This document shows, one piece after another, positions 161 through 63,914 of a stretch of DNA of 64,000 bases. The position numbers and the translations under genes are program-made. The notes beneath the pieces are model-generated. The model did no database searches, was not told the DNA's origin, and was given only the letters and a program-made list of their open reading frames with translations. Source of the stretch: Stegostoma tigrinum (lineage: Eukaryota); the NCBI RefSeq assembly GCF_030684315.1, contig NC_081369.1:23643754-23707753 (forward strand), in the 5' to 3' direction. Position 1 is the first letter of the stretch. Each line of letters starts with the position of its first letter.

Positions 161-199
161 TACCAAGGTTTGCAACATTGTCCAGAAAAATGAATTGGG

Positions 200-5400: not shown

Positions 5401-6007
5401 CTCACTGAAGGTTAAAATTCTAAGTAATATTCTAATTGCAATAGGGCATTGATCTTTATGGTTTTAACATTGATTCTTAATTTTTAACTCCACACTCCTA
5501 TTTACAAAAATTCATGTTGTAAATGCTTTTTGTTTTATAACTTCATCAAGATGCCCTCCAACATGTAAAGATTGGTCCAGCTACAAAGTTAACTTTTTAA
5601 GGATTTTGAAAAGATCTATAGCTCAGGTTGTAGCTAAAGTTATTGACTTGCTCACTGAGCTGGCTTGTTTTCGATCAGTCGTTTCGTCACCATGCTAGGT
5701 GACATCATCAGTGTGGCCTCCGATGAAGCAACGTTGTTCTACTCCACTTGGAGTTTATACTGTGCAGTCTGTTATGGTGAGTTGTGTCATTTTCGGTTCT
5801 GTTCTGTATGGGTTTGTATATTGGGAACAATTCTATATGTTTGTTGGTTGCATTGTGGGTTGAGAACCATACCTCCATGAATTCCCATCCATGTCTATGT
5901 TTGGCTTGGGTTACTACGGTTACATTGTCCAAACATAGACACGCATGGGAATTCCTAGAGGCATTGCTCTCAACCCGTAATGCTATCAACAAACAAAAAG
6001 AATTGGA

Positions 6008-6102
6008 GATAAAAATGTGTGAAGCTGGATGAACACAGCAGGCCAAGCAGCATCAGAGGAGCAGGAAAGCTGACGTTTTGGGCCTAGACCCTTCTTCAGA
6101 AA
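6008..6102 (-). mobile_element. About 95-bp Neptune-type PLE terminal-repeat fragment nested in the Poseidon-type palindrome
   Basis: CTGGATGAACACAGCAGGCC...TGACGTTTTGGGCCTAGACCCTTCTTCAG; 13-bp TSD AAAAAGAATTGGA at 5995-6007 and 6103-6115. Confidence 0.82.
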
Positions 6103-6226
6103 AAAAAGAATTGGACCTCATATACAAACCCATACAGAACAGCACCAGAAATGTCACAACTCACCATAACAGACTGCACAGTATAACCTCCAAGTAGAGT
6201 AGAATAACATCGCCTGATTGGAAGCA

Positions 6227-6266
6227 TCACTGATGATGTCACCTAGCATGGTGACAAAACGTCTGA
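6227..6266 (+). ncRNA. Minimal type I hammerhead ribozyme motif (G12 to A variant); mirror copy on the minus strand at 5675-5714
   Basis: UCA-CUGAUGA-U-GUCACC-UAGCAU-GGUGAC-(A)AAA-CG-UC-UGA: 6-bp stem II, 3-bp stem I UCA/UGA, ACGU palindrome in place of stem III. The mirror copy keeps GAAA but has GAC at the cleavage triplet. Confidence 0.72.
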
Positions 6267-6334
6267 ACAAAAACAAGCCAGTTTGCAAGCAAATCAACAA
6301 CCTTACAAAGTTGACTTTTTCTTTTGCAAATCCA

Positions 6335-6520
6335 GTACTAAGGCCTCCCAGGGGTAAAGTGAGCTGATCATAATGGCTGATCCATACAGACCAGATAAGT
6401 GTTAGGTTTGTTCTTTGGTCTGTGCTGAGTTGGCTGACCTCAGTTGTGATGATAGTAGATGTGGAATGATGGCATTTCATACCCTTGAATTAAGAAGGAA
6501 TGAAACAGCCAGGATTACCA
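6335..6520 (+). mobile_element. Ancient tRNA-derived SINE relic (AmnSINE2-like)
   Basis: GGTCTGTGCTGAGTTGGCTGACCTCAG resembles my recollection of the AmnSINE2 head; highly diverged. Confidence 0.3.
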
Positions 6521-7334
6521 TCATAAAACTTGACCAACATAAAGCAAACCATGTTGCAAGAGCAAGTGTATGCGTATAAAACAATGATAGGATCAGTTTG
6601 CCAGCATTCATTATTGAGACTCTGGAATCAGTTCTGTGTCATTTGGGCATGGTGGTCAGGCTAAGAGATGACCACTCGGACTGCATTCCAGCATGTCATC
6701 AATACCTTCAGTGAAGTTGAGTAGAGAATAATTACTGAATGGAAAAAGGAGAGGTCAAATGGACATGTTTAAAAAAATTCTGTTTAAAAAATATGTATTT
6801 AGTAGCACTGACATTTTTTTACAAAGTGTAATCTCTTCTTTAAACGTTGAACAAAATGAAATAAATGCTGTGGAATATTTCTCTATAGTTAGAATTTCTA
6901 ATTATTGCATGTAGTCTGTATTCAAGAAAAGAATGAATGTCTTTAAAAACATCTGGTTTTAATATATTAAAAAATTATGAATTTCAGCAAAATCTGTAAA
7001 CTTCCATGGCCTTTTTTCACTATTTTGTTTTAGCATGGTTACTAACTCTTGGAAAGTCTACAAAAAATGATAAAGAGTACATGGATTTCCTCTGAGCAAA
7101 TCACCTGTGGTGAACTGCACAATTTCCTGTGTGAAGCATCTTTCTATTTAATAGGCTGTACTCAAATATTGATTCATTTGTAACTAAAATAAGCAAAGAT
7201 TTTACTTAAAAAAGATAAACAAATGAATTCCAAAGTGTGGTACAGGCCTTTGGATGTTGAACAATCAAAGAGTGAGACTGTATCATTCACGGACAGCAGT
7301 AACAGAGTTTCACTGTTGGTATAGATATATATGA

Positions 7335-10075
7335 TCAAATACTTACAGCACGGAAGGAGGCCATTTGGCCCATCATGTCTCTGCTAGTTCTCCGAAGGGT
7401 GAATTCAGCTGTGCCCCTTCACTATTTTTAATTTGCAGATAATAATTCAATTTCCTTTTGAAGATCTCTGATTCACTCTGATTCAACTGCATCCTCAAGC
7501 AGTGCATTACAGATTTTAACCATTCACTGTCTCAAAATGTTATTTGTTATGTCACCATTGCTTCTTTTGTCAATTACATTGAATATGTGTCTTCTGATTC
7601 TCAAACCTCTATCAATGTGAATCCAAAGAGAATAGTCCTAATTTCTTCTTTCCATACACCTAACTAAATGCCTTCATCCCTGGAACATATCTTACGAATG
7701 CTTTCTACCCTATCAATATCCTGGGAGTTACAATTGACCAGAACTAAACTGAAAGAACCATATAAACACAAAAGTAGGACAGAAGCTAGGAATTCTGTGG
7801 CAGGTAGCTTGCCTTCTATCACCTTAGTGTCTTCCCACCATCTAAAAGGCATAAGTCAGGAGTGAAGTGCATTTGTTCTCATTTGTCTGGATTAATCTAG
7901 TTTCAGTAATACTCAAGAAGCTTGACACTTTCCAGGACAAAGCATCAAAATTGATTGGCACCCCATGCACTACCTTCAACAATCACATCCTTCGCCACTA
8001 AAACATAATGACATCAGTATGTACCATCTACAAGATGCAACGCAGTAACTCATCATGATTTCTCTGACTGCATCTTCCAAAACTGTGACATCTACTAGCT
8101 AGAAGAGCAAGGGAGACAAATATGTGGGAATGCCACCACCTGCAAGTTCCTCACCAAGCCACATACCATCTTGACATGCACTAATATTGCCATTCCTCCA
8201 TTGATGACTGGATCAAAATACAGGAATTCCCTTCCAACAACACAGTGAGGATCCTTCACCCCAAGGACTTCAGCAGTTCAATGAGACAACTCACCAACAC
8301 TTTCTGCAGGGCAATTTGAGATGATCCAATCTGCAATGCCCATGCAAATGAAAGGGTATAATTAATAACAACCCTCTACACATGCATCACGTTGACCCCT
8401 AAGTGTCAAACTCAGAACTGGGTGTAATACTCTAGTTAAGGTCAACTAGCCTTTTACACAGGTTTAACTTAACCTCCTTGCTTTTACACTCTATGCTCTT
8501 ATGGATGAATCCCATGTTACACAACACTTAATGAATCACAGGGTTCCAACAATTTTCAATAATTTATGCACGTATATACCAAGGTCCCTTTGCTCCACCA
8601 CCCACTTTAGAGTTGGACAGTCATCTCTCTCAAATCTTCCTAACAAAATGAACCACATCACACTTACTTTCCTTTAAATTTTGTCTCACACTTTTCCACT
8701 CAGCCCACCAAACTGTCCATGTACATTTGAAGCTCTACACTATACTCCTTTTGGTTCAGAATAATTCCAATATGATACTGTTGACAATAATATAAATGAT
8801 ATCAATGACATAAATTTTGAAATTGGACTCCATGCAACAAGGTCTAGATGATTAATATATATGAAATGTATCTCTGCTTCCTGTCACTCAGCCAATTTTG
8901 TATGCATATTTCAATTGTTCTTTGCATTCCACAGGCTCCAGATTTGTTCAAAGGTCTGTTATGTGGCATTTCATTAAATGCCTTTTGGAAATCCATGTCC
9001 ATAACATACATCAAACATTACCCTCATCATCTGTCTCTACTATCACATCAAAAAACTGAAACAAATTATTTAAACAAGATTTTCTCTTAATAAATCTATG
9101 TTGGCTTTTCTTAGCTAAAGCTCAAGTGACTATTAACTTTGTCTTAAATTATTATTTCTAAAACTCCCCCACTAATAGAGTTAAACTGTTTGGGTTATCG
9201 TTACAGGGCTTACCTTTACACTTATTTTGAACAAGGATCTAACGTTTGAAATTTGCCACTCATTCAGCACCAGCCCTGAATCTGAAGAAGACTGGCAAAT
9301 TATGGCCAAGTCTCCAAAACTTTCACTCTCACTTCACTCAGCATTCTTGGATCCACCTTATCTGGTCCTGATGCTTTATTGACTTTATCCACAAGCCTAA
9401 TCAAAGCATCTTCATTCTCAATTTTAAAACTTTCAGGTGTTTGAGCTACGTCCTCATTCACCATAACCTGGACCATATCCTTTTACTTGAGAAAGGTAAA
9501 TGCAAAACATTCATTTAAAACCTCAACATTGTCTTCTGTCTGTGCATATTTCTCCTCTTTGGGACCATATAAACCTCCACTCCACTTCTGATTGCGCTTT
9601 TACCTGCACTATGCACCTGTAGAAGACTTTGGATTCCTTTTTATGTTAACTGCAAGATTTTTCTTTTCTCATGTTCTATCTTTGCTTCACTTAGTTTTTT
9701 TTCCCAAATCCCCCCATAATCTTCCATATCCACCTCATTCTCAATAATTATCCACCTAACATTTGCCATAAGCACACTTTTCCGCTTTCCATCCCTTTAG
9801 TCACCTAGGGAAACTCTGGATTTGCTTGCCCTACCATTCCACTTCTGTACTTCCTTTCTATCTGTGCGTTAAAGGCAGACCATTGATCAGTTATGGTTTT
9901 GTCTGCTAATCCCTGATCCCAGTTTATCTGGGCCAGATTCATTCTTACCACGTTGGCCTTGTTAATTATTTTCATTCTGGTTTTCCCTTTGTCCCTTTTC
10001 ATAGCTATTCTAAACTTATGATATGTTGATCTCTGCCACCTTCCCCCACCAACTCTTTGCCCCACATTCTTCTCA
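7335..10075 (-). mobile_element. Heavily decayed CR1 LINE, interrupted by a younger LINE at about 7790-8345
   Basis: 3' UTR-like ACAGCACGGAAGGAGGCCATTTGGCCCATC at 7346; AAATGCCTTTTGGAAATCCATG (DFQKAF on minus) near 8976; ORF 9805-10083 resembles the CR1 tether (ANVVRMNLAQINWDQ...QWSAF). Confidence 0.6.
7790..8345 (+). mobile_element. 3' fragment of a Crack/CR1-group LINE
   Basis: AAGCTTGACACTTTCCAGGACAAAGCA...TTGATTGGCACCCC (KLDT.QDKA..LIGT); same family as 15575-16160, 20140-20670 and 63915-64000. Confidence 0.65.
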
Positions 10076-10579
10076 TGAATCAATTCTAGCAGTTAGGTTT
10101 AGCAGATATTATATACTAATTCAGTGGAAAATCAGGTAGGTGTTTAACAAGTAAATAGTACAGTAATGGAGATTTTCTCTGTTACCCTTACATTTCAGTG
10201 TTGTGGCTATTGTTTATTTTATGAAGTAAATCATAATGATTCTGCGCAGGTCAATTAAGAAGAATAATTTTCACAGTAAAGAATGCTTTATTAAGTACTA
10301 TTCCTGATCAAGTTTAGCCTGGAATATTATTGATATCTAAGAAAATAGGATACCAGTGACTGATATTATGGCATGACCTTGGTAATTTGAATGGTTTGTC
10401 GCTTACTAGAAACACATATAATCCAGCTTCTCAAAATTTTTATGAACAAATTTCTTTAAGGACCCAGATATACTTTACTCAGTCTAGTTTACTTTGATTT
10501 GGGAAACATGTAATTATTAAAAATTTAAGGGTTCAGTGTTATAAGTAAAATGAATTCCTGTATAAGTATCAGAGTGTCT

Positions 10580-11168
10580 CCATTCAAATTACTAACCTGT
10601 AGGACCTCTAACAGGAGAGCTGGCTTGAAACACATTTATCGATTAATATTTACTCATCATTCTAGAGGTGGGCTGCTGATCTCAGTATGATTGAGAGAAG
10701 GAATGAAAGCTTCTTTACAGAGTATCCTTTCCTCATCATTCAAACACTGATTGTCTTTCCTGCTGGGCTATCAGAAGAGATCCCATAGGAGAAGCCTTTG
10801 GAGATATTTGAAGTACACACCGCATGTCATTGTTTTATTTTGTTAGAGATTGATGACATGGATTCTACCTGAGAGATTACCTTTAAAATCATTTTAAGAA
10901 CAGTGAACTAAAAAATGCTAGTTATTTTCTGGCTTGGAGCACTCCACAAAATTTTAAAGATAATCTCGCAGATAAGATCCATGTCATCATTCTCTAACAA
11001 AGTATTTGAATGATGAGGAAAAGGTACTCCTTAAAGAAGCTTTAGTTCTTACCCTCATTCATACTGAAATCAGGAACCCATTTCTAGAATGATAAGTAAA
11101 TATTAATTGATAATTTTGTTTCAATCCAGCTCTTCTGTTAGAGGTCCTACAGGTAGTAATTTGAATAG
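10580..11168. mobile_element. Foldback/MITE-like palindromic element
   Basis: 10583-10748 is the reverse complement of about 11000-11165, and 10841-10889 of 10951-10999; roughly 90-bp extra segment in the left arm only. Confidence 0.75.
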
Positions 11169-40587: not shown

Positions 40588-43178
40588 GTAAGAACATTTA
40601 CGTCAGTTTGCTCTCTCTTCCAGTCCTCTGAGCGCCGGTAAATCATTTCTGTACAAACGCCACCCCAACCCCCACCACCCCAAAAAAATACAGAAAGTTT
40701 GCAAGCGATTACCAAAGCAGCACGCGGGGCCAGAAACAGTGTGGGACTGGGGATTCTCAAAAATATTTTTTGGTTAAAAAAGCGCTTTACTTCAACCACT
40801 TTTCTTTTCGCTGTTGACTTTTCTCCCGAAAACTTTCCCGTCAGTTTCTGCGCCGCGTTTGTCAGTTTCACTGCCGTTTCCTCGTCAATTTCACTTGCGG
40901 ATTTTGTTATTTTTTTCGGGTGTGTGTGTGTGTGTGTGGCAGCTCCATTTTTGTTTGGCTTCCAGCGTGGTGTCACTCCACAAACTTTCCTCTCGCCCCA
41001 ATTGCTTTCTCTTCACCTCAACACGGGTGTTTTTGTGTGGCGACAGAGCGTAGCTGAATTGACTGTTGTGTTTCATCTTATGTTTGAGTTCTAAACGAGC
41101 ACTCTCCCTCTTCCCACTTCTCCCCCGATCCTCCCTATCCCACCTCCCTGTTTAGGGTGCCCAGTATGAACTGAAGGAGAGCCCAGGAGTACAGCATCCT
41201 GCTTTCCCGCACCACCACGCCGCCTATTACCCTTACGGCCAGTACCAGTTCGGGGACCCGTCCAGGCCGAAAAATGCCACCAGGGAAAGTACCAGCACTT
41301 TGAAAGCTTGGCTGAACGAGCACCGCAAAAACCCGTACCCGACCAAAGGAGAGAAGATCATGCTGGCCATTATCACCAAAATGACCCTGACCCAAGTGTC
41401 GACGTGGTTCGCCAACGCCAGGAGGAGGCTGAAAAAGGAGAACAAAATGACTTGGACTCCCAGGAACAGGACGGACGAGGAGGGCAATTCGTACGGAAGC
41501 GAGCCAGACCTGGAAGGGGAGAAAAAGGAGGAGGACGAGGAGATCGATTTGGAGAATATTGACACGGAGAATATTGAAAGCAAAGAGGACGAGGACGAGC
41601 AAGACCCGGACTTCAACTTGGACTGCAAACTGGATGGCAGAAGTGACTCAGAAATCTCGGACACTTTCGACGAGTTGAACGGCCCGGAGGCCGGCTTTCT
41701 GAAATCGGTGGTAGAAGACAGCAGAGTGAGCGAAGACAAACGGGGTGACCTGTCCCCGCAGATCTCCGGGCAGGTCAGCGGCGATCCGACCAAAAACAAC
41801 AGCGAGAGGAAAAGTCCGGTGTCGCCTGCACCCGAGAACAGCCTGTCGGTGAACCAGAAACCTAAAATCTGGTCTCTGGCTGAGACGGCCACGACGCCAG
41901 ACAATCCTCGCAAATCTCCCCAGATCAGTAACCCTCCCGCCGGCTCCGCTGCTGCCTCCTCTCTCCTGGGCCAGCACAGACTTTTCGCCTGCCCCATGGG
42001 CAAATTTCAGAACTGGACAAACCGCACCTATTCTCACCACCCGCTGGCTTTAATTAATTCCAATCATTTCCTTGGACTTAGTACAGGCCAAGCTGTTCCG
42101 ACTGCCGGGGTTCCCGCATTTTGCACAGTCAGGGGAGGCGAGGAACGGGCGCAGTCTGCAGAACCCACGGTAACAGGTACATTGAACTCAAATCCTATGA
42201 AACATGCTTCAACCAGACTCTGAGAACACCTCACACAATTTGCAAAGGGAATCAATTTTTTTAAAAAAATGAATAATACCGATCAGCAGCCTTACCAGTT
42301 GGGCCTTTTATTTAAACAATAAAGTTAAAAGTTAAAAGGAATGATTAACTCAGCGGTGATCTCCAAAGGTATCCCAACGATTGCGAATTAATTACATTTA
42401 CTGATTACACAAAGCCCACTTCTTCATTTTTTTTTCAATCGATCCTGAGAGATTTTTTACATCCTGCTCGCGAAAAGTACCATTGCTCAATTGTAACTAA
42501 ATCCAAGATAGAAGTACTCTAAGGTGCAATCAAAGTAATGGGATAATGATTTTTTGATGGTCAAAATTGCATTTATTATAAACTGATCTTCAGCACCAGT
42601 TTTAAGTATAATTTATAATTTCATTACAATAACTTTTCCAGTAAGTATTAGGTAGGGAAAAAAAGGCACCCATGTAATAAGATAACACTTACCCTGTATT
42701 GTATTCACACCACTTTATCCTTTAACTGGTCTAATTGGTAACGATTCTATAACAAAGTTGAATTTCAGCGTCTGAATCTGAGTAAAAGTGGCCTCGATAA
42801 TGGCGAACAATACCAATTATCAGAACTCGTTGTTATTTGCAGATCGAAGCAGTGCCTTGGAAATAGAGAAAAAAATAGTAAAGACAGCTTTCCAACCAGT
42901 TCCGAGACGGTAAGAAACATGTTTCGTTTTTGTCCGCATCTTCCCACCATTTTACACCAGATGGAGGTCTTTGCAGTAACAGGCGTGCAGCTTTTTTGTA
43001 TTCCTCGCTGTAGTTGACCTGCATTTAAAACTTAAATCACAACATTTTACACAAAATGTGGATGTCAAACTTTGGGGGAAAAAAAATCAAAACACTGATC
43101 CACAACAATTTTGTTCGTTTCAGACCCCAGAATCAACTCGATGCAGCCATGGTTTTGTCGGCGCTTTCATCCGCATAG
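40375..43178 (+). CDS. irx3: Iroquois-class TALE homeobox protein Irx3; CDS join(40375..40587,41156..42176,42843..42909,43124..43178), 1356 nt, 451 aa
   Basis: N-terminus [10 protein letters not shown]...[37 protein letters not shown] homeodomain [62 protein letters not shown], acidic region, IRO box [12 protein letters not shown] and C-terminus [40 protein letters not shown] all match the Irx3 paralogue. All three introns are GT..AG and the phases (0,1,2) join in frame. Confidence 0.96.
41156..42176 (+). CDS. irx3: Irx3 exon 2 (homeodomain about 41250-41455, IRO box about 41858-41893)
   Basis: Long polypyrimidine tract then TTTAG|GGTGCC acceptor; in frame with ORF 41300..42223; donor ACAG|GTACAT, phase 1. 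Confidence 0.94.
42843..42909 (+). CDS. irx3: Irx3 exon 3 (67 nt)
   Basis: TTTGCAG|AT acceptor; encodes (D)[21 protein letters not shown](R); donor CG|GTAAGA, phase 2. Confidence 0.92.
43124..43178 (+). CDS. irx3: Irx3 exon 4, coding part
   Basis: TTTCAG|A acceptor; encodes [17 protein letters not shown] then TAG at 43176-43178. Confidence 0.92.
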
Positions 43179-43499: not shown

Positions 43500-43505
43500 A
43501 ATAAA
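43500..43505 (+). terminator. Irx3 polyadenylation signal AATAAA
   Basis: First canonical AATAAA about 320 nt after the stop codon; preceded by multiple TGTA motifs and followed by a T/GT-rich tract (43527-43545). Confidence 0.75.
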
Positions 43506-45955: not shown

Positions 45956-46393
45956 CCACCGCATCCCAAAACCAGCCCAGCTCATCCCCTCCCCCCACTG
46001 CATCCCAAAACCAGCCCAGCCTGTCTCTGCTTCCCTAACCTGTTCTTCCTCTCACCCATCCCTTCCTCCCACCCCAAGCCGCACCTCCATTTCCTACCTA
46101 CTTCCTCATCCCACCTCCTTGACCTGTCCGTTTTCCCTGGACTGACCTATCCCCTCCCTACCTCCCCACCTATACTCTCTCCACCTATCTTCTTTACTCT
46201 CCATCTTCGGTCCGCCTCCCCCTCTCTCCCTATTTATTCCAGAACCCTCTCCCCATCCCCCTCTCTGATGAAGGGTCTGGGCCCGAAACGTCAGCTTTTG
46301 TGCTCCTGAGATGCTGCTCGGCCTGCTGTGTTCATCCAGCTCCACACTTTATTATCTTGGATTCTCCAGCATCTGCAGTTCCCATTATCTCTG
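45956..46393 (+). mobile_element. Single-arm Neptune-type PLE 3' terminal repeat
   Basis: Near-identical to the arms of 19177-20007; 8-bp TSD ATACAATC at 45948-45955 and 46394-46401. Confidence 0.88.
46262..46295 (+). ncRNA. Minimal type I hammerhead ribozyme with an intact catalytic core; predicted cleavage after C46292
   Basis: CUGAUGA(46265-71)-A-GGGU-CUGG-GCCC-GAAA(46285-88)-CG-UC; ACGU palindrome in place of stem III; stem I only about 2 bp (CU/AG). Confidence 0.7.
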
Positions 46394-47245: not shown

Positions 47246-47303
47246 GAGAGGTAGTAGGCACTGCAGATACTGGGGAACCTGAGATAACAGGGCGTAGAGC
47301 TTG
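47246..47303 (-). mobile_element. 58-bp extreme 3' tip of the same PLE repeat
   Basis: GTAGGCACTGCAGATACTGGGGAACCTGAGATAAC; TSD TG(T/C)TCAAATTCGCT at 47232-47245 and 47304-47317. Confidence 0.7.
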
Positions 47304-49386: not shown

Positions 49387-50377
49387 TCCCTCAGAGCATG
49401 AACTGCAGATGCTGGAGTCAGAGACACACAGTATGGAGCTAGAGGAACACAGCAGGCCAGGCAGCATCAGAGGAGCAGGAAAGTTGATGTTTCTGCTTGG
49501 GACCCTCCTTCAGAAATGGGGAGGGGAGCTGGGTAATAAATAGAGAGAGGAGGGGTGAGGCTGTGGAAGGTAGGTAGGATGGTGATAGATGAGTGCAGGT
49601 TATGTCAGGTCAAGGAGGTGGGGATAAAAGGGAGGTTTGGACATGGGATGAGGCGGGAGGTGGGGAGATTTTAAAACTGGTGAATTCCATGTTTAGGCCA
49701 TAGGGCTGTAGGCTCCCAAGGCAGAATATGAGGTGTTGCTCCTCCAGTTTGCAGGTGGTGTCATTGTGACACTGGAGGAGGCCAGGGATGGAGACGTCAC
49801 CCAAGGAGTGGGAGGGGGAGTTAAAATGATTGGTGACTGGAAGGTGTTGTTGTTTGTCACGTACAGAGTGCAAAAGCTCTACAAAGTGGTGGCTGAGTCT
49901 ATGCTGGTCTCACTGATGTAGAGGAAACCACATCAGGAGCAGCAGATACAGTAGACCAAGTTGACACCCTGACCACCCACAAACTGGAGGACCAACACTT
50001 CACATTCCACCTCGGGAGCCTACAGTATGTAGGCCTAAACATAGAATTCACCAGTTTTAAAATCTCCCCACTCCCAGCCTCATCCACATCCAACCTTCAT
50101 TCTCATTCCCACCTCCTTGACCTGACACAATCTGTCCATCCTTTTTGTCCCACCCCTCTGCTCCTCCCACCTCATTGACCAATCCCCACCATTCCCTACC
50201 TGCATTCACCTATTACCATCCCACCTACCTTCCCCAGTCCCACCCTCCTCTCTATTCAATTCCCAGCTCCCTTCCCGCTCCTTCCTTTCTGAAGAAGGGT
50301 CCCAACCTAAAATGTCAACTTTCCTGCTCCTTTAATGCTGCCTGGCCTGTCGTGTTCCTCCAGCTCCACACTGTGTT
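49387..50377. mobile_element. Older Neptune-type palindromic PLE with a GIY-YIG endonuclease relic
   Basis: Minus strand NLVYCICCS*CGFLYISET...PVTNHFNSPSHS...EEQHLIFCLGSLQPYGLNMEF; inversion point about 49965; 10-bp TSD GAAAATGAAA at 49377-49386 and 50378-50387. Confidence 0.85.
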
Positions 50378-50454
50378 GAAAATGAAAGCTGTGCTTTGTT
50401 GACCTACAAGTTTAGAAATTTCTGAATATATTCAGAAATCAGACTATCCAGTCA

Positions 50455-52512: not shown

Positions 52513-54549
52513 GGATGAAATGGCACAATGATTTATAAGACAAAAAATTAACAAAATCAGTGAGTACATAGTGTGCAGTATACTCTGCAATTAACATTTT
52601 TACCCTGGTCTGTCATGTTGAATTCCATTGTTAAAAGTGTTCCGGAAATTGTATCATTATAACATAGCTGCTCCTTGATATATAATGCTAATATTTTCAT
52701 ACTCATATCAACATAATTTATGTATGTTCCTTCAATTAACTTAGCACGACTGATGACAGAATTAATAAAGTGCTGCACATTTATAGGGGAGTCTCATAGT
52801 GCTCTAAAATTAGTACATTGTAAAATGTTTTAGATGGTCATGATTATATCCTCATAGCCTTTTTATTCTGGCAGCTTCACACTAGCAGCTGACCAGCCAC
52901 AAATATGAGGTTTATTTAATCACACTGGCATTCAAACATGTTATTGTTTGGATTGTCATATTGCTGTAGAAAACAGTTCGAAGTTGCTTCACAAACAATA
53001 CATCCCATCCAGGCCTTCCCAAACATGAGGTGCAAGATGACAGTATACGTTTCATGTGTGTGGATACAATGTCAACAAGATCTGCTATTCAGATTTCTGT
53101 CTTACTAATATCTATGGTGGAGTGAAGTTTCTACCTTTTCTGACATTACAATGCTTGTTTGCTGTTACAATGTTCTTTTATTTGTATAAAGACATCCCAC
53201 ACATCATGTACATAGCAACCCAGCTTTGAGTTCTTTAAACAAAAACCAGACACATCATCTGATAACATGGCAATGACTAGAAGGCTTTCTAAACACAATA
53301 TGAAAAATGCATCAAAATTCTATATGCCTTACAAGTTAAATAGGCCAAAAAGTAACAATTCAGTAGGTTAAGGAGTTACTCTAGTTTTGAGCATTCCTCT
53401 CAATAATTCATGGTTAACTTCATGGTTTGTCAGTTAAGAATAACATCACAGTGATCAAGAAATGGCAATATGGCTCAACCAGCTTGTTTTGAATAATCAG
53501 AAGTATCAAGTTACTGCTCACTCTCAGTGTAAATTCAATACGCTTGTTGTACCCTTTGTGGAATATATAAAGTACATTGCACCCGCAGGCAAAGGCATGT
53601 GCTTTAAATACAATAGGACAGCATAAGGCCTGACTTTTCTATTCAAGACAATCAAGATTGAATTGCATCATTTATTATCATAGAAGCTGTTCAAAGATGT
53701 AAGACATGGCACAACTTATTCCATTTAATTTACTGTGCATTAATAAGTAGAAAAGTCTGTACTTGTACTAATTCCACACTTTATTGTTTAAAATTATTCC
53801 TAAAAGCAAAGTTTCTCACTTATACAGAAAACCTTTTGGGCTCTATTGAGGGCTGGTCAGATTTATCACGTGATTAAATGAACTAAAAAAAAGATTTGTG
53901 GTTTATCTGACCTGGCAGCATTAGCAGTCCTAAAAACTGTTGGTTGATTTCAAAGTACTTAATCCACAAATTGCTGAAATTGAATGCATGTGAATGGTGG
54001 ATGAGGAAGAAATGAGACCAGACTAGACTACAATGATGCCATGATCCTATGCAATGTTCCCTGTAAATTGTACAGTCATGCAGCTGTGTAGCAACCTCAA
54101 AATCCTTGCACAGGCCACACAAAAGTCAGTCCTTTTAAGTTTTCTCATATACTCAAGCAGGCAAAACAAATTGAAAAGATTCCTCTACCTGAACAAATCG
54201 ACAAAGGCATGAAAAACGGACAAGACATGACAGGGAATATCTAGGAAAATACTACAGACAAACTTGTGCTGAAAGAACCATATAGAACCATAGTGAAAAG
54301 TGACAAGTGGATAACTTGGAAGAGTTGGAGTGGGAGAAAGTTAGTTAGAAAAATAAATACAGAAAAGTGGTTTCATAACACCATTATGACCCTATGATCT
54401 GAATGCACAATTGCCATGACAGAGTGCCAACATAGCTGATCACTAAATATTTGAAGACTAAAGCCATTGTGTTTTGTTTCCATCATTAAATTCATTTTTT
54501 TTGCCAATGATTGCACCCTTTCGCTGGAAGCTAAAGCTGAAACTAACCA

Positions 54550-54930
54550 TTTGCAGTCTTGGTGCCTTATTTGACCCTGAGATGAGCAACAACTGATTAC
54601 AACTGCCTGTTTCCACCTCTGTAACATTTCCTTTTGTCAGCCCAGCTCACCACATTTGCTGCTGAGGCTCTCATCCATGACTCTGTCACCTCTAGACTTG
54701 AGTAATCCAAAGTATTTGTGGCCTCCCGCATTCTCACCTCTATAAATTTGAAGTTATCCAAAATTCCGGGCTGGCCTTGTCTTAACTTATATCAATTACA
54801 ATTAAGCCATCACTATTGTAATGCTGGTCTATATTAGCCTACTGTTAAGCACTATCTAAACTTTAAACATTCTTATAAATATTTTCAATTTCCTCTATGG
54901 ACTCAATTTACCCGATCCCTATATCTCCTG
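54550..54930 (+). mobile_element. L2 LINE relic
   Basis: LGALFDPEMS...FHL.NI...AEALIHDSVTSRLE: typical L2 C-terminal RT motifs. Confidence 0.6.
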
Positions 54931-55480
54931 TAGCAATAAAGTAATGATCAGGAACTCACTGTCTTTGAGAGTGGTGAAACCAAACACAATAAATGCCTTC
55001 AAAAGGAAATTGGATGGGTAATTACAAGGTTACATGCAGGGGTACAAATTTGGAATGGGGAACAGAGGTTCTGTGCACACTGAGAGCTGGCTCTGAAGAA
55101 GCCAGACCAGTATCAAATACTATGCACATGTAAATAAAGGGTGACTTATTCATGGAATACAGGCCTCTGTGGAGTTATTTCTGCGGCAACGAGAGAAAGG
55201 AATTCATTCCTGAAGAAATTTGCATGCCACAGGCCTCTCTGAGTTGGGGTAAGCATTTCTGACATCATGATTTAGGAAGCTTGACTTATTTGATCCTGCC
55301 TTTGAAGACTAGGCCCAATGTGTGTAAAGAATGGATTACTTTTTCTGGGAAAATGTCATTGGGGCAGATGAAAAGTAATGAGTGCCTCTCCTGAAGGCTT
55401 GTGAATCTGCAGCTTTTTCGGTTATTAGGAACCTGATATTTATTGAGACAACAAATTCTAAAAGCTTTCAAGCGTTGACA

Positions 55481-58400
55481 TAAAGAAACAAACAAAGAAA
55501 CAAAGAAACCTACAGCACAGGAACAGGCCCTTCGGCCCTCCAAGCCTGCGCCGATCAAGATCCACTGTCTAACCTGTCATCTATTTTTTAACGGTCTGTG
55601 TCCATTTGCTCCCTGCCCATCCATGTACCTGTCCAAATATATCTTAAAAGACGCTAACGTGTCTGCGTCTACCACCTCCGCTGGCAACGTGTTCCAGGCG
55701 CCCACCACCCTCTGTGTAAAGAACTTTCCACACATATCTCCCTTAAACTTTCCCCCTCTCACTTTGAACTCATCACCCCTAGTAATTGAGTCCCCCACCC
55801 TGGGAAAAAGCTTTTTGCTATCCACCCTGTCTATACCCCTCATGATTTTGTAGACCTCAATCAGGTCCCCCCTCAATCTCCGTCTTTCTAATGAAAATAA
55901 TCCTAATCTTTTCAACCTCTCTTCATAGGTAGCACCCTCCATACCAGGCAACATCCTGGTGAACCTCCTCTGCACCCTCTCCAAAGCATCCACATCCTTT
56001 TGGTAATGTGGTGACCAGAACTGTACACAGTACTCCAAATGTGGCCAAACCAAAGTCCTATACATCTGCAACATGACCTGCCAACTCTTGTACTCAATAT
56101 CCCGCCCAATGAAGGAAAGCATGCCAAATGTCTTCTTGACCACCCTATTGACCAGCGTTGTCACCTTCAGGGAACAATGGACCTGAACACCCAGATCTCT
56201 CTGTTCATCAATTTTCCTTAGGACTTTTCCATTTACTGTATAGTTTGCCCTTGAATTTGATCTTCCTAAATGCATCACCTCACATTTGCCCGGATTGAAC
56301 TCCATCTGCCATTTATCTGCCCAACTCTCCAGTCTATCTATATTCTGCTGTAATTTCTGACAGTCCCCTTCACTATCAGCTACTCCACCAATCTCAGTGT
56401 CATCAGCAAACTTGCTGATCAGACCACCTACACCTTCCTCCAGATCATTTACATATATCACAAACAACAGTGGTCCCAGCACAGATCCCTGTGGAACACC
56501 ACTGGTTACAGGTCTCCAATTTGAGAAACTCCCTTCTACTACTACCCTCTGTCTCCTGTTGCCCAGCCAGTTTTTTTATCCATCTAGCTAGCACACCCTG
56601 GTCCCCATGTGACTTCACTTTCTCCATCAGCCTGCCATGGGGAACCTTATCAAACGCCTTACTGAAGTCCATGTATATGACATCTACAGCCTTTCCCTCA
56701 TCAATCAACTTTGTCACGTCCTCAAAGAAGTCTATTAAGTTGGTAAGACGTGACTTTCCCTGTACAAAACCATGTTGCCTATCACTGATAAGCCCATTTT
56801 CTTCCAAATGGGAATAGATCCTATCCCTCAGTATCTTCTCCAGTAGCTTCCCTGCCACTGACGTCAGGCTCACCAGTCGATAATTATCTGGATTATCCTT
56901 GCTGCCCTTTTTTAAACAAGGGGACAACATTAGCAAGTCTCCAGTCTTCTGGGACCTCACCCGTGTCTAAGGACACTGCAAAGATATCTGTTAGGGCCCA
57001 GGCTATTTCCTCTCTCGTTTCCCTCAGTAACCTGGGATAGATCCCATCCGGACCTGGGGACTTGTCCACCTTAATGTCTTTTAGGATACCTAACACTTCC
57101 TCCTTCCTTATGTCAACTTGACCTAGACTAAGCAAACATCTATCCCTAACCTCAACATCCGTCATGTCCCTCTCCTTGGTGAATACCGATGCAAAGTGCT
57201 CGTTAAGAATGTCACCCATTTTCTCTGACTCAGCGCATAACTTTCCTTCTTTGTCCTTAAGTGGATCAATCCTTTCTCTAGTTACCCTCTTGCTCTTTAT
57301 ACATGAATAAAAGGCTTTGGGATTTTCCTTAACAATGTTTGCCAGCAATATCTCATGTCCTCTCTTAGCCCTCTTAATCCCTTTTTTCAGATTCGCTCTA
57401 CATTCCCGATATTCTTGCAAAGCTTTGTCTGTCTTCAGTCACCTAGACCTCATGTATGCTTCCTTTTTTCTCTTGGCTGGTCTCACAATTTCACCTGTCA
57501 TCCATGGCTCCCTAATCTTGCCTTTTCTATTCCTCATTTTCACAGGAACATGTCTCTCCTGCACGCTAATCAACCTCTCCTTAAAAGCCTCCCACATATC
57601 AAATGTGGATTTACCTTCAAACAGTTTCTCCCAATCTACATTCCTCAGATCCTGCCGAATCTTGGTATAGTCGGCCTTCCCCCAGTTTAGTACTCTTCCT
57701 TTAGGACCACTCCTATCCTTATCCATGAGTATTGTAAAACTTACGGAATTGTGGTTGCTATTTCCAAAATAGTCCCCTACTGTAATATCAACCACCTGGC
57801 CGGGTTCATCCCCCAGCACCAGGTCCAGTATGGCCCTTTCCTGAGTTGGACTACATACGTACTGCTCTAGAAAACCCTCCTGGACACACCTTACAAATTC
57901 TGCTCCGTCTTGACCCCTAACACTGAGTGAATCCCAGACAACATTGGGAAAATTAAAATCTCCCGTCACCACCACCCTGTTTCTCCTACACCTTTCCATT
58001 ATCTGTTTACATATTTGTACCTCTATCTCACGCTCGCTGTTGGGAGGCCTGTAGTACAGCCACAGCATTGTTACTGCATCCTTCCTATTTCTGAGTTCTA
58101 ATCATATTGCCTCACTGCTTGAGTCCTCCATGGGGCCCTTCTTCAGTGCGGCTGTGATATCGTCTTTGACCATTACTGCAACTCCCTCACCCCTTTTACC
58201 TCCCTCTCTATCCCGCCTGAAGCATCGATATCCTGGGACAACTAGTTGCCAGCCATGCCCTTCCCTCAACCAAGTCTCAGTAATAGCAATAACATCATAC
58301 CTCCAGGTACCGATCCAAGCCCTAAGCTCATCTGCCTTATCTACTACACTTCTCGCATTAAAACAAATGCACCTCAGACCACCTGTCCCTTTGTGTTCAT

Positions 58401-59377
58401 CATCTGCTCCCTGACTACTATTCCCTTTAGTCACACGGACTCCATTATCTAGTTCCCTACAGGCTTTCATTTCTACCTCTTTTCTGTCCAATATTTGGTT
58501 CCCATCCCCCTGCACATTAGTTTAAACCCTCCCCCACAGCATTAGCAAAAGCACCCCCAAGGACATTGGTTCCAGTCCGGTTCAGGTGTAGACCGTCCAA
58601 TTTGTAATAGTCCCACCTTCCCCAGAACCGGTTCCAATGTCCCAAAAATTTGAACCCCTCCCTCCTACACCATCTCTCAAGCCATGCATTCTTCCTAGCT
58701 ATTCTTTCATTTCTGCATTGACTAGCATGTGGCACTGGTAGCAATCCTGAGATTACTACCTTTGAGCTCCTACTTTTTAACTTGGCTCCTAACTCCCTAA
58801 ATTCTGCTTGTAGGACCTCATCCCGTTTTCTGCCTATATTGTTGGTGCCTATATGCACTACGACAACTGGCTGTTTGCCCTCCCCCTTCAGAATGTTCTG
58901 CAGCCGATCGGAGACATCCCTGACCCGTGCGCCTGGGAGGCAACATACCATTCAGGAGTCCCGTTTTCAACCGCAGAACCGCTATCTATGCCCCTTACAA
59001 TTGAATCCCCAATGACTATCGCCCTTCCACTCTTTTTCCCGCCCTTCTGTACAGCAGAGCCAGCCATGGCGCCATGAACCTGGCTAATGCTGCCTTCCTC
59101 TGGTGAGCCATCTCCCCCAACAGTATTCAAAACAGAATAGCTGCTTTGGAGGGAGATGACTGCCAGGGACTCCTGCACTGCCTTCCTGCTCTTCCTCTGC
59201 GTTTTGGTCACCCATTCGCTATCTCCCTCAGCAATCCTAATCTTCGGTGTGACCAAATTGCTAAATGTGCTATCCACGACCCCCTCAGCATCATGTATGC
59301 TCCAAAATGAGTCCATCCGCAGCTCCAGAGCTGTCATGCGGTCTAACAAGAGCTGCAGCTGGACACACTTCCTGCAC
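55481..59377 (-). mobile_element. Near full-length CR1 LINE (ORF1 with SGNH esterase; ORF2 APE endonuclease plus RT), multiply frameshifted
   Basis: ORF1: IVIGDSIVRG, CLPGAR, VVHIGTNN, DGLHLN. ORF2: CFNARS, AITETWL, YYRPP, GDFNFP, LDLV, KSPGPDG, DFSKAFD, KFADD. (TTTCTTTG)n tail at 55481-55509. Splits the Gypsy gag. Confidence 0.95.
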
Positions 59378-60053
59378 TTAGTTAAGGAATATTATGACCA
59401 AAGCCTCATCTAATTCTGTGATTCTATCGCTTTTACTCAGCAGTTCGAGAACCAGAAGCATCCATGCTGGGATTTTTGTCAAGGTTAAGACGATTGGCAG
59501 AGGCATGTAACTTTGGTTTATCCCTCAATGAGACGCTGAGAGACTGTTTGGTATGTGGGGTTAATGAAGTAAACATGTGCAACTCTTTACTAACTGAAGC
59601 CCAACGGGAATTCAAACAGGTAGTACTACTGGTTTTGTCATTAGAAAATGCAGTAAATTAAACAAATGATTTAGAGGGTGTGCTGATGGAAGTGGACACA
59701 CTCCAGTCCTACTGACCCTGGGGAACACCAGTTCAGTGAAGGTAATTGCGTAGCCTCATCAAGTGCATATTCTGCACAGAGGAACTCTAGGTCAGCCCAC
59801 AGCAAAACCCCAAAACAAAGCCAAGCCTTGACCAAATGGCTAACATTTTTTTCGGGATCCAGGCCATTGTAGTTGCTGCCGGTGTGCTGATTCGAGGCAA
59901 CAAAAGAGTCCGACCAGGCCTGAATTGAGTGTGAGAACTCATAGGTTGGTACCCAGGAGAGTGCACACCCTAGAAGGTACACTAACATTGGGCTTGGTTA
60001 CATTTACAGTTACATTTTTGGCAACATCCAAATCAGAGTCAATTAAAATAAAT

Positions 60054-60288
60054 TGTTAATTGGTAGTAGGAACTGCCAGTGCTAGAGAATTTGAGATAAC
60101 AAGGTGAAGTGCTGGATGAGCACAGCAGGCCGAGCAGCATCAGAGGAGCAGGAAAGCTGTTGTTTCGGGTCTAGACCCTTCTTCAGAAATCAGAAATGTT
60201 TTCTGAAGAAGGGTCTAGACGCAAAACGTCAGCTTTCCTGCTCCTCTGATGCTGCTTGGCCTGATGTGTTCATCCAGCTCTACACCTT
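60054..60288. mobile_element. 235-bp palindromic PLE derivative made of two hammerhead-bearing terminal arms only
   Basis: 60101-60189 reverse-complements 60200-60288; 14-bp TSD CAAT(T/C)AAAATAAAT at 60040-60053 and 60289-60302. Confidence 0.85.
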
Positions 60289-60583
60289 CAATCAAAATAA
60301 ATGTCTGGTTAAATGGTCACCCCGTTCTCGTGGAGTTCATTGCCAGTGCAGCTGTTTCAGTGATTACAGAACCAATCGTTAACAAAATTTGCTCTGGATT
60401 CCAGCCCTTAAGTTTGCAGAGGACCTTGGCTATACTGAGAGCCTATACTGGGGTGCCCCGACAGATAAGGGGTAAAGCTTTGGTTTCAGTCTTGTATGAG
60501 AAGCAGCTGGCTCATTTACCCCTGATGGCAGTGAAAGGCTCAGGGCCAAGCCTGATAGGGCGAAATTACCTAAGAAAGATTCA

Positions 60584-60782
60584 GGGATAGCAAGAACTAC
60601 AAATGCTGGAGTCAGAGTCAATACAGTGTGGAGCTGGAGGAACACAGCAGGTCAGGCAGCATCAGAGGAGCAGAAGAGTCAATGTTTTGGGCCAGGACTC
60701 TTCATCAATCCCAAAATGTCAATCCTCCTGCTCCTCTGATGCTGTCTGACCTGTTGTGTTCCCCCAGCTCCACACTGTATTG
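60584..60782. mobile_element. 199-bp palindromic PLE derivative
   Basis: About 60619-60691 reverse-complements 60710-60782; 11-bp TSD AGAAAGATTCA at 60573-60583 and 60783-60793. Confidence 0.85.
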
Positions 60783-61050
60783 AGAAAGATTCACCTAGAT
60801 TGGCTCAACATTTTTCATTAGAAAGTGGCTGTCTGAGTGAAGTCCTGAGGTTTCTCAGGAAGCTTTAGGGACTATCAAAGGAGCCAAGGCCACCTTGCAT
60901 GCTGACCAGGAAGTAATTTCATGATTCTGCCCAGTGTTGTTTGTTTTGCATGCAAATGTAAAGGAAGAAACTAGGAGGCTCGAAAGCAAATGAGTCATCA
61001 AACCAGTCCAGCTTGCGGAATAGGCAGCACTGGTTGTAGCAATTGTGAAG

Positions 61051-61124
61051 TCTCTAGGCCCGAAACTGCTCCTCTGATGCTGATTGACCTGCTGTGCTCA
61101 TCCAGCTCTATCCCTTGTTATCTC
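61051..61124 (+). mobile_element. 74-bp PLE terminal fragment inside the Gypsy RT
   Basis: TCTAGGCCCGAAACTGCTCCTCTGATGCTG...CATCCAGCTCTA; TSD GTGAAG at 61045-61050 and 61125-61130; removing it restores IVKATESVCLCGDFK. Confidence 0.75.
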
Positions 61125-63914
61125 GTGAAGGCCACTGAATCAGTTTGCCTTTGTGGGGATTTTAAATAAATGGTAAACCATTTCACACAGCTGGATGAAT
61201 ACCCAATCATTTGCATCGAAGACTTACATGCAAATCTGTGGTGGGGTGTGGGAGTCACTGTACTTCATGAAGCTGGACATGAGCCATATATGCCTGCAAT
61301 TGCAGTTAGATGAGGATTACCAGAAATATGCTATAATTAATACCTACAAGAATTTGTACCAATATACCAGACTGCCATTTTGGATATCATCAGTTTGTGC
61401 TATTTTTCAACCGACCATGGAGAATATACTACAAAGTCTACCCCGGTTCACCATTTATGTGGACGACGTGCTAATAGCAGGGAAAATCAATAAAGAACAC
61501 TTAAAGAACATGAACATAGTCTTTAGCTGTTTGTTCAAGGTAGTGAGTATGCCTTAGAAGGGGGGATGTGTGTTCCAGCAAGATACCTTCTCGGGCTACA
61601 GAATTGACAAGACTGGATTAGAGCCTTTGGAAGATAAAGTGGAGATGATGAAAGGTGTCTTGGCTCCCATGTCTGTACTGGAACTTAGGTTTTTCCTTGG
61701 ATTGATGAATTATTACAGAAAGCTCATTAGTAACCTGGCCTCCATCCTAGCACCCTCACATCAGAAATTGAAGCAGTGAACATCATTGAAGTTGTTGGCG
61801 CACTATGTTCCAAGCAAGATCTCATGCCAACATGCGTTGCCTCCCCATACGGTATCAGGGTACTGTTAGCTCACAGATGGCCCAATGGAGAGGAACCCGA
61901 ATAGCATATGCTTGCCAGACTTTGGCTGATGCAGAGCACAAATACACCCAGATAGAGAAGTAAGGTTTGGCAATTGTCTTTGGTGTGAAAAAATTCCACC
62001 AATGCCTTTATGGATGTAAATTTGTAATAATAACAAACCACAAACCCATGTCAAGGCTACTCAAAGAGGACAAGGCCGTGCTGCCCATAGCTTCAGATCG
62101 AATTCATTGGTGCGCTCTCATTCTAAGTGCTTAGAATTACAAGTTGGAACACTGTCCGGAAGGCCATGTAGCAAATCTGGATGCCAGGAGCCGCCTCCCA
62201 CTGGTAGATCCACCACCAACTGTCCCGCCATTAGGAGAGTCTGTTCAGATTTTAGATTTTCTGGATACTCTTCCAGTCACCGTTCTCAAAATTAGACTGT
62301 GGATGCAAAAACAGTCAGTCCTGGCGAAACTAACCCAGCTGATGGCGATGGGGGAAACAAAAGGGCCATCACAACCAGAATTGAAACTTTCCTAGGCCCA
62401 GTAAGACCAGATCACTGAGGAGGACAACATTTTATTATGGAGAGCAAGAGTGATTGTCCCAAGCAAAGGTTGCTACAGGATAGTGGCTAAAATCCACTCA
62501 GATCACCGGGCTGTGCAAAATGAAGATGTTGGTGAGAAGTTATGTTTGGTGGCCAGGATTGGATGCAGACATAGCCCTGTTGGTGAGGAAGTGCCCAGAG
62601 CGACAACAAGAACAAAAGTTACTGCCAGCAGCTCCCCCAAATTCATGGGAATGACTGGGTAAATCATGTACTCAATAAGATGTTGATAATGCAAGCCTTT
62701 TCATGGGCTCAGTGTTCTCATTAATTGTGGCTACCTACTCAAAGTGGTTGCATTGCACAGAATTCATTTGTCAGACATAGGGATAACAATGGAATAGTTA
62801 TAAGCATCTCGGAATGCTTGGTCATATACAGCAGGCCATCACACACCAGCAGGGAATTCAAGTATTTCCTGAAGTTGAATGGCATTCGCCATGTAAGAAC
62901 AGCTCCATACCATCCATCGTCCAATGGTCTGACAGAAAGAGCATCCAGACTTTGAAGGGAGGCCTAAAGAAGCAGTCCACAACTTCACTCGATACCAGAC
63001 TGTCCCGGTTCCTCTTTGATTACGGAACCATCCCACAAGCAACTACAGGGATAGCTCCAGCAGAGTTGCTAATGGGGAGAAGATTCCGCACCAGGTTAAA
63101 TCTGACCTTCCTGGACCCGGGTGGGAGGATGTAATGGCATCAGGGACGCCAATGTCAGACACAATGCTCCTCTAACCAGGAAAGACAGTTTACTTTGGGG
63201 GCGAAATTTGGTGCCAAAATCACGGATATGGCCCTGCACGGGTAAGAGGCATGGTCAACATGGGTCCAGCGATGTACAAAGCTCAGGTAGGTGAGGCGGC
63301 CCCGAACAAGCATGTGGAGCACATGAAAGCTGCAAGCTCAAAAATGGGGCAGGAGCAAAGCATACCTGGCTCCCCAGAACAAGCTGTCAGAACCCTTGGG
63401 TTCTTCCCAGTCCATCTAGCGATGAAGAAGCCTCAGATTCTAAAATGGGCTGTGTCACAGCCTCAGTGCCTTTACCACCTGAAGAACAGGATGAATTTCT
63501 TCAATATGTTTTGGGCGCAAGAGGTGAAAATGCCCCAGGAGATTGAATTGAATTGAATCATTTATTGACACGTGCATTCAACCTAAAAATACAGTGAAAA
63601 ATGTGTACCTTCCCTGTACGTACATGGTACATACATTCACATTAACTTAGAATAAGATAAGAAAAAAATGATAACAAGAGAATCCAACTTTCCTTTCCAT
63701 TGCCACAGTCCCACTCAGGGCTTTCCAGCCCTCGCCATGTCGCTGCCAGCACCCCTACAGAGGGAGAGAGAGGAAGGGAGGTTAAAAAAAGGGAAAGGAT
63801 AAAGAAAGAAAGAGAACTGGCAAGCAGAGTAGTCTTTAAAATGCCACTAAGACCTTTTTAAAAAATTGGAAGCTTTGCTGAAGGACAAATGATTGTAAGG
63901 TAGGACTCTGTTTA

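What the first reader, a model, noticed from the sequence alone, without database searches (positions are those of the whole stretch)
5599..61130. Dispersed hammerhead-ribozyme system carried by two Penelope clades, inserted as TSD-bounded palindromes and mini-fragments
Seen: nine insertions (starting 5599, 6008, 19177, 45956, 47246, 49387, 60054, 60584, 61051), each with a 6-17 bp TSD. Five are inverted-repeat structures. Their terminal repeats contain CUGA(U/A)GA-N-stem II-GAAA-CG-UC in two unrelated sequence versions (stem II GUCACC/GGUGAC versus GGG/CCC). Established: Penelope-like elements carry minimal type I hammerheads with a palindromic ACGU loop that cleave as dimers (Cervera and de la Pena 2014). 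Inference: at about nine copies per 64 kb, this genome may hold a very large hammerhead repertoire. Non-autonomous, ORF-less derivatives may be mobilised in trans, retrozyme-like. I cannot tell whether this has been described in sharks.
Basis: partly seen in the sequence, partly recalled or inferred. Interest (0 to 1): 0.8.

Follow-up and report, generated by a model that had tools for sequence, protein, structure and literature searches.

The report
Truncated Penelope copies with hammerhead ends
These scattered mirror-image insertions are shortened copies of two known kinds of Penelope retrotransposon whose ends carry a known minimal ribozyme motif (about 100,000 intact copies in this genome), and their ends suggest that the element likely starts copying its RNA at two fixed sites at once and often runs off a capped RNA end lying just before the ribozyme.

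Summary
The nine insertions are real: eight have clear 8-17 bp TSDs, one only 6 bp; five are palindromes; two clades (Neptune-type A, Poseidon-type B). Only 1 of 14 arms in the window keeps an intact hammerhead. Genome-wide, one 31-base family-A hammerhead occurs exactly 92,385 times, and family A covers 6.9% of 830 sampled kb. Young copies with intact 1,073-1,108 aa ORFs between two hammerheads exist, so the short forms are best read as 5'-truncated products of autonomous elements, not retrozymes. Minimal hammerheads, inverted pLTRs, TSDs and one-sided tails are published, and this scan noted the same pattern on two other genomes. Not found in my searches: 47 of 48 palindromes carry exactly one tail, either arm may be longer, and 5' ends pile up at the hammerhead's 5' edge (5.4% per base against 0.15-0.55%), mostly after a G, with no excess at the cleavage site. 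Inferred mechanism: coordinated priming from both target ends at two RNA sites, with run-off at a capped RNA end. Ribozyme activity and RNA ends are untested.

The parts
5599..6303 (.). Family B (Poseidon-type) palindrome, 3' ends outward; left arm has the tail, right arm has none; GIY-YIG C-terminal remnant; both hammerheads mutated; 17-bp TSD
6008..6099 (-). Family A mini-insertion nested in the B palindrome: from position -1 of the hammerhead core to the tail-less end (+92); hammerhead mutated at G12; 16-bp TSD
19177..20007 (.). Family A palindrome; long tail-less left arm (to about -445), short tailed right arm (to about -155 to -183); GIY-YIG remnant; 17-bp TSD; both hammerheads mutated
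45956..46393 (+). Family A single arm with tail, 8-bp TSD
46265..46292 (+). The only intact minimal hammerhead motif of the window (C3 at 46265, predicted cleavage after 46292)
47246..47303 (-). 58-bp family A fragment: tail plus a few upstream bases, no hammerhead; 14-bp TSD
49387..50377 (.). Older family A palindrome; tailed left arm, tail-less right arm; GIY-YIG remnant (63% identity to the young ORF); 10-bp TSD; hammerheads decayed
60054..60287 (.). Family A mini-palindrome; both arms end at the hammerhead's 5' edge; one tail; 15-bp TSD; both hammerheads mutated
60584..60782 (.). Older family A mini-palindrome; tailed left arm to +1, tail-less right arm truncated inside the motif; 11-bp TSD
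61051..61124 (+). 74-bp family A fragment, tail-less, truncated inside the hammerhead; 6-bp flanking repeat of doubtful significance

Best explanation
The insertions are 5'-truncated copies of autonomous Penelope-like retrotransposons (a young, very abundant Neptune-type family and an older Poseidon-type family), and each palindrome is likely made during insertion, when the element's RT-endonuclease would extend both cut target ends from two fixed RNA start sites that flank the 36-38-base tail. Shown: family identity, intact partial-tandem masters, two 3' end classes (+92 and +128 from the core C3), one of each per palindrome, outward-pointing 3' ends, TSDs of 9-22 bp, and a truncation hotspot at -6 to +2. 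Inferred (about 0.6): one ribonucleoprotein, probably a dimer on one RNA, primes once at each site; the two cDNAs stop at similar places and their 3' ends are joined in the middle; single arms arise when one cDNA is lost or very short. Inferred (about 0.6): the hotspot is the capped 5' end of the element's RNA, about 4 bases before the core, so the 92-130-bp minis are run-off ('strong-stop-like') cDNAs of the 5' leader. The hammerhead is under selection in the source elements (pairs covary between families) but is inert cargo in nearly all dispersed copies, and the RNA that is copied is mostly uncleaved.
For: RT (YIDD, DKG) plus GIY-YIG in one ORF; uninterrupted 1,073-1,108 aa ORFs in 8 of 15 fetched candidate loci (one more of 1,166 aa), and a hammerhead-tail-ORF-hammerhead unit of 3,645 bp in L266. 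CX4CX2C linker in A, none in B, the clade marker given in PMC8557442. One tail: 46 of 48 palindromes by script (binomial P 4e-12 against 0.5), 47 after one by-eye correction; single arms 41 tailed, 46 not. Same rule in family B (3 of 3 clean pairs of 5 listed), C (5 of 5) and about 10 of 13 in D. Tailed arm shorter in 23, longer in 16, equal in 7 of 46; arm ends correlate (rho 0.46, P 0.0014; 7 of 10 long pairs within about 110 nt). Arms of a pair are about as close as, or closer than, the median other copy in 15 of 16, with up to 9 shared rare variants. In vitro, the anole Poseidon protein cuts and extends both strands and starts at two RNA sites bounding the tail (PMC11167929). Hotspot: 21 ends in 386 base-exposures at -6..+2 (5.4%) vs 0.55% downstream and 0.15% upstream, P below 1e-11, 75 young arms; also seen in older A and D. 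By-eye tally of the first 100 of 11,474 listed truncated copies: 58 end at -4, 48 of them after a G, and 14 of 17 when palindromic symmetry cannot supply it; about 10 of 21 G-selected junctions have a G templated by neither partner arm nor target; an extra G marks capped full-length L1 insertions (PMC11702581). Four loci show a jump from the -4/-2 end into internal element sequence (L271, L051; L286, L300). No excess of ends at the cleavage site (0.74% vs 0.52%, P 0.41), in line with PMC11167929.
Against: No RNA data were obtained, so the transcription start is not shown. The predicted scar of a homologous jump (G at -5 in copies that continue upstream) is absent: 129 against 166 for a control position. 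Family B shows no hotspot at the hammerhead edge (21 arms). Exceptions to one tail: one tail-less pair in the sample (L132) and two double-tail pairs among selected loci (L007, L280), none with a convincing TSD; L295 unresolved. PMC11167929 saw no strand difference in start-site use in vitro, so the coordination is not shown there. Correlated arm lengths and shared variants also fit fold-back or later gene conversion. Only 9 of 29 young single arms had a TSD by script. The G tally is by eye, from one contig, and many G's can come from the partner arm. The tail and hammerhead region fold no better than shuffles (z about 0 to -0.6). Clade assignment rests on one motif, not a tree.
Confidence: 0.68

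Rival explanations
1. Fold-back or self-priming: one strand is made first (or an antisense RNA self-primes, as proposed in PMC3846280) and the second arm is copied from it, the tail being lost on one side by endonuclease resolution.
For: Explains one tail per palindrome, correlated arm lengths and shared rare variants; short inverted matches and 1-3 base fillers occur at many centres.
Against: A copy cannot be longer than its template or gain a tail, yet the tail-less arm is the longer one in 23 of 46 pairs, by over 500 nt in L155 and about 290 nt at window 19177; tail-less single arms with TSDs exist (6008), so priming at +92 occurs on its own.
Confidence: 0.2
2. The hotspot is not an RNA end made by transcription but an RT stall, or a decay boundary, at the folded or protein-bound hammerhead.
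For: The peak coincides with the 5' strand of helix I in A and D; PAc protein binds this region and assists folding (PMC11167929); about 51,000 exact copies pass straight through it.
Against: A stall would be expected on entering the structure, not on leaving it; the G excess and the jumps from exactly this position fit a physical capped end.
Confidence: 0.25
3. One reading: the minis and palindromes are a non-autonomous, retrozyme-like family copied as units in trans through cleaved or circular RNA.
For: Very high copy number and a defined 92-130-bp unit; non-LTR retrozymes derive from pLTRs and were found in one chondrichthyan (bioRxiv 10.64898/2026.07.22.740005). Some minis could be re-copied in trans, since the primed region is all they need.
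Against: No tandem arrays in 830 kb; units run from -4 to +92/+128, not from one cleavage site to the next; no peak at +28; centres differ between loci; palindromes bury the motif in a hairpin.
Confidence: 0.07

Closest known systems
EN+ Penelope-like elements, Neptune clade (family A) and Penelope/Poseidon clade (family B) (PMC8557442, passages; PMC3846280, passages)
   Same: Single RT plus C-terminal GIY-YIG ORF with two cysteines between GIY and YIG; partial tandems; 5' truncation; inverted 5'-truncated copy; 30-40-bp tail often at one end only; TSDs.
   Different: Copy number and genome share are high for a hammerhead-bearing family (6.9% of the sample); the one-tail pattern is near-absolute and the truncation hotspot at the hammerhead edge with a G junction was not in the passages read.
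Minimal type I hammerheads of metazoan PLEs (Cervera and de la Pena 2014, PMC4209133, parts 1-2 of 4)
   Same: Core boxes, extra base after A9, G10.1-C11.1, short helix I, palindromic helix III; mostly single dispersed motifs tied to truncated PLEs; pairs on opposite strands 100-700 bp apart already noted in Schistosoma.
   Different: About 100,000 intact copies here against about 4,000 (coelacanth) and 9,000 (Xenopus) by their descriptor; near the 120,000 retrozyme copies of axolotl (PMC7229834, passage).
Poseidon from Anolis (PAc) in vitro (Frangieh et al. 2024, PMC11167929, parts 1-2 of 4)
   Same: Two internal RT start sites bounding the tail; both strands cut and extended; uncleaved RNA is the substrate; predicted dimer.
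   Different: That paper does not, in the parts read, tie the two sites to the two arms of inverted insertions; in family A the ORF starts 166 nt after the core rather than inside it.
Non-LTR retrozymes (PMC7229834, passages; bioRxiv 10.64898/2026.07.22.740005, parts 1-3 of 5)
   Same: Type I hammerhead, pLTR origin, large TSDs, high copy number.
   Different: Retrozymes are head-to-tail tandem arrays with cleavage-defined monomers and circRNAs; here copies are single or inverted and bounded by RT start sites and the hotspot.
L1 twin priming and cap-derived G (twin priming recalled; extra G from PMC11702581, passage)
   Same: Both target ends prime; inverted pieces are joined in the middle; extra G at the RNA's 5' end.
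   Different: In L1 the two cDNAs cover different parts of the RNA; here they cover the same part, offset by the tail.

Membership tests
EN+ Penelope-like element | One ORF with RT and C-terminal GIY-YIG | tested here: met
   Family A: 1,089-aa ORF in L266, Pfam RVT_1 E 3.6e-4 and GIY-YIG E 2e-3 on L196, both below Pfam cut-offs, motifs. Family B: RT-to-EN reading in broken pieces in L284, a younger B subfamily locus; no intact B ORF seen.
EN+ Penelope-like element | Two cysteines between GIY and YIG (CCHH) | tested here: met
   Present in A and B; histidines not checked individually.
EN+ Penelope-like element | pLTR partial tandems, inverted copy, tail, TSD | tested here: met
   (17 of 25 palindromes with TSD 9-22 bp; chance 2 of 150).
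Neptune clade (family A) | CX2-5CxxC linker between RT and EN | tested here: met
   At residue 912 of the L266 ORF; definition. Nematis shares the motif.
Neptune clade (family A) | RT phylogeny with named Neptune elements | not tested
   No named reference sequences were fetched.
Penelope/Poseidon clade (family B) | No CX2-5CxxC linker | tested here: met
   Absent in the 247-aa L284 piece that spans thumb to EN; one locus.
Minimal type I hammerhead of PLEs | Core boxes, base 9.1, G10.1-C11.1, helix II, palindromic helix III | tested here: met
   Across families the core is constant while pairs change: 10.2-11.2 G-C in A/D vs U-A in B; 2.1-1.1 U-A in A/D, A-U in B, C-G in C (n=2); helix III middle CG vs GC (A and B sets include 30 loci each chosen on the motif). 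Met by 1 of 14 window arms.
Minimal type I hammerhead of PLEs | Self-cleavage as dimer or with protein | not testable with these tools
   Needs in vitro assay; monomer fold pairs the core into an inactive form; no genomic trace of cleaved templates.
Non-LTR retrozyme | Head-to-tail tandem repeats with a hammerhead in each unit | tested here: not met
   4 same-strand neighbours among 187 arms, none a regular array; one 59-bp internal repeat (L286).
Non-LTR retrozyme | Unit bounded by cleavage sites; circular RNA | tested here: inconclusive
   Ends do not peak at the cleavage site; RNA not examined.

The most novel reading that the evidence does not exclude
Neptune-type Penelope RNA begins with a capped hammerhead; a dimeric RT-endonuclease primes both target ends from two sites on that same 5' leader, one RT following the other, and must jump from the RNA's 5' end to copy the body of the element, as retroviruses do after strong-stop synthesis. 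Failed jumps would have left about 100,000 hammerhead stumps and palindromes in this genome, and the 3' hammerhead would serve to define the acceptor end.
Probability: 0.25. Interest if true: 0.75.

Novelty: new member of a known kind. Interest (0 to 1): 0.45.

Why it matters
How Penelope elements make their inverted, one-tailed insertions and what their hammerhead does are open questions (PMC8557442 calls the cycle undefined and hammerhead function unclear). This genome holds a very young, intact and extremely abundant family, so the insertion record gives sharp numbers (one tail per palindrome, a 9-base truncation hotspot with a G junction, no trace of cleaved templates) that an existing in vitro assay and 5'-end sequencing can test directly. 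As a ribozyme census it is among the largest reported, but most copies are likely inert. The many long hairpins may also be a large source of double-stranded RNA (untested).

Tried and rejected
Rfam search: no hammerhead hit; the best hits were miRNA models below gathering score, explained by the hairpins. Cleavage-site truncation peak: none. Strand-transfer scar at -5: none. Selection on the core within dispersed copies: none in young arms; older arms 93.7 vs 90.0%, which mixes subfamilies. Stable stem-loop at the tail: not supported by folding. Palindromes as intramolecular ribozyme dimers: rejected, the partner is antisense. Palindromes with arms from different subfamilies, which would prove two RNAs: none clear among 16; L007 is the only candidate and lacks a TSD. 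Spliced exon before the hammerhead as in D. virilis: family D's upstream resembles a 3' splice site (motif recalled), but flanks at the hotspot are unrelated to each other, so not supported. Solved structures: none similar to the ORF. Rows set aside: one artefact end (L127:7604, direction unchanged), L122 (spurious) and L100 (cut by the stretch end) among B pairs, 4 edge singles, and inner-pLTR pairs L269 and L276. RNA evidence was not obtained. Lunse et al. 2017 was not held and is known here only as a reference in PMC6765202.
Full report
Observation. Eight of the nine insertions have clear TSDs of 8-17 bp at the stated starts; the ninth (61051) has only a 6-bp repeat that overlaps element sequence. 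Five are palindromes with 3' ends pointing outward. Eight insertions belong to family A and one (5599, with an A copy nested in it) to family B. Only one of the 14 arms keeps an intact minimal hammerhead, at 46265-46292. Rfam finds no hammerhead here.

Identity. Family A loci lead to an RT with DKG and YIDD motifs, a CX4CX2C linker and a GIY-YIG domain, the Neptune-type layout of PMC8557442 (passages). Of 15 candidate loci fetched, 8 hold uninterrupted ORFs of 1,073-1,108 aa and one of 1,166 aa; L266 shows hammerhead, tail, ORF, hammerhead, tail with a period of 3,645 bp. Arms of one young palindrome are 99.95% identical (L210), so the family is recent. Family B has a Poseidon-type EN without the linker; no intact B ORF was seen. 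Two more hammerhead-bearing families (C, D) occur in the sample but not in the window.

Abundance. One exact 31-mer of the family A hammerhead occurs 46,102 + 46,283 = 92,385 times (reversed control 0); the B 34-mer 53 times. In 83 evenly spread 10-kb stretches (17 of 100 requested did not exist) there are 187 family A arms in 139 units covering 56,890 of 830,000 bp. 106 arms span the motif, 39 keep the core, 26 also the helix III palindrome, about 100,000 genome-wide. A family-blind descriptor gave 46 hits against 0 in four controls. For scale: about 4,000 and 9,000 min-HHRs in coelacanth and Xenopus (PMC4209133), up to 120,000 retrozymes in axolotl (PMC7229834 passage).

Is the motif a hammerhead? 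Between families the core is constant while helix I, II and III pairs change together (small n for C and D, and A and B sets partly chosen on the motif). Within dispersed young copies the core is no better kept than downstream sequence (98.0 vs 97.7%) and its CpGs decay. The monomer folds with the core paired, as expected for dimer- or protein-dependent motifs (PMC4209133; PMC11167929). In palindromes the motif pairs with its antisense copy in hairpins of -126 to -594 kcal/mol. Activity was not tested.

3' ends. Arms end at about +92 or +128 from core C3, each just after the same six-base box. 46 of 48 palindromes have one of each by script (P 4e-12); L151 is a script error and makes 47; L132 has no tail and no convincing TSD. 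Single arms are 41 tailed and 46 not. Among selected loci 27 of 31 pairs have one tail; two others are inner pLTRs and two (L007, L280) lack TSDs. The rule holds in B (3 of 3 clean), C (5 of 5) and about 10 of 13 in D. The tailed arm is shorter in 23, longer in 16 and equal in 7 of 46; ends correlate. A tail at one end only is published qualitatively (PMC8557442; PMC3846280), the latter proposing self-priming on an antisense template. A longer tail-less arm, and TSD-bounded tail-less singles, do not fit copying of one arm from the other unless the apex was later deleted. PAc cuts and extends both strands from two sites bounding the tail (PMC11167929). I infer coordinated priming from both target ends, probably on one RNA.

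5' ends. Among 75 young arms the chance of ending is 5.4% per base at -6..+2, 0.55% at +3..+60 and 0.15% at -900..-7; around the cleavage site it is 0.74% (P 0.41). Older A and D peak at the same place, B does not. Genome-wide, 51,381 exact copies continue upstream and 11,474 match a pattern for ends at -2 to -5. By eye, 58 of the first 100 listed end at -4, and 48 of these follow a G, 9 a T, 1 an A (C excluded by the pattern); where the base before cannot be the mirror image of the partner arm, 14 of 17 are G. In 21 junctions from 20 loci chosen for that G, about 10 have a G templated by neither partner nor target, 3 use the last G of the TSD, and the rest are explained by the partner arm or unclear. 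An extra G marks capped full-length L1 insertions (PMC11702581 passage). L271, L051, L286 and L300 show the -4/-2 end joined to internal element sequence, as if RT ran off and jumped. The sequences around -4 resemble initiator or TCT motifs (consensus recalled, not tested). I infer a capped RNA end about 4 bases before the core. Against a general homologous jump: no G scar at -5 in continuing copies (129 vs 166). In D. virilis the start lies upstream of an intron whose end meets helix I (PMC2377424 section 14; PMC4209133), a different layout. No RNA data were obtained, so this remains inference.

Retrozyme reading. Not met: no tandem arrays (4 same-strand neighbours among 187 arms), no cleavage-bounded units, and only two end combinations recur among 48 palindromes. 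Re-copying of some minis in trans is not excluded.

Novelty. The system is known. Searches turned up no paper on these families in cartilaginous fish beyond one species in bioRxiv 10.64898/2026.07.22.740005 (parts 1-3 of 5), and none stating the one-tail count, the hotspot or the G junction; Lunse 2017 and Arkhipova 2006 were not readable and supplements were not read, so any of these may be in print. Two earlier notes of this scan describe the same insertions on other genomes as mostly ordinary; none matched the hotspot words. Verdict: new members of a known kind, with a useful and testable mechanistic record; interest 0.45.

Noticed in passing
window 41156-42220 (+): Large exon of a TALE homeobox gene (Pfam Homeobox_KN E 2e-18); the translation has Iroquois-like features (family name recalled). 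The insertions lie on both sides of it.
   Followed up: partly
window 10595-11154: Old inverted repeat with 154-bp arms at 86% and a 252-bp spacer, not matched by the Penelope queries; may be a MITE.
   Followed up: no
window 81-371: Two LINE 3' ends with short tandem tails in inverted orientation, 129 bp apart.
   Followed up: no
window 339-2243 (-), 55580-58951 (-), 30085-30585, 61177-61554: LINE remnants: RT, APE endonuclease and a GDSL-like ORF1, the first with a 635-aa open frame.
   Followed up: no
L093:5714-5909, L157:7221-7539 and other sample loci: Two further hammerhead-bearing families (C, 14 arms; D, 79 arms of which 11 overlap A) with the same palindrome and tail pattern; their ORFs were not traced.
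   Followed up: partly
L269:677-8580: 7.9-kb palindrome holding two uninterrupted ORFs (1,096 and 1,108 aa) back to back, four hammerheads, one outer tail.
   Followed up: partly
window 46272-46284: Family A stem II with its loop is itself self-complementary, so two RNAs are predicted to pair through stem II as well as helix III.
   Followed up: no
window 60121-60269, 60643-60759: Mini-palindromes score against a miRNA model (E 7e-6, below gathering score); probably only hairpin likeness.
   Followed up: no
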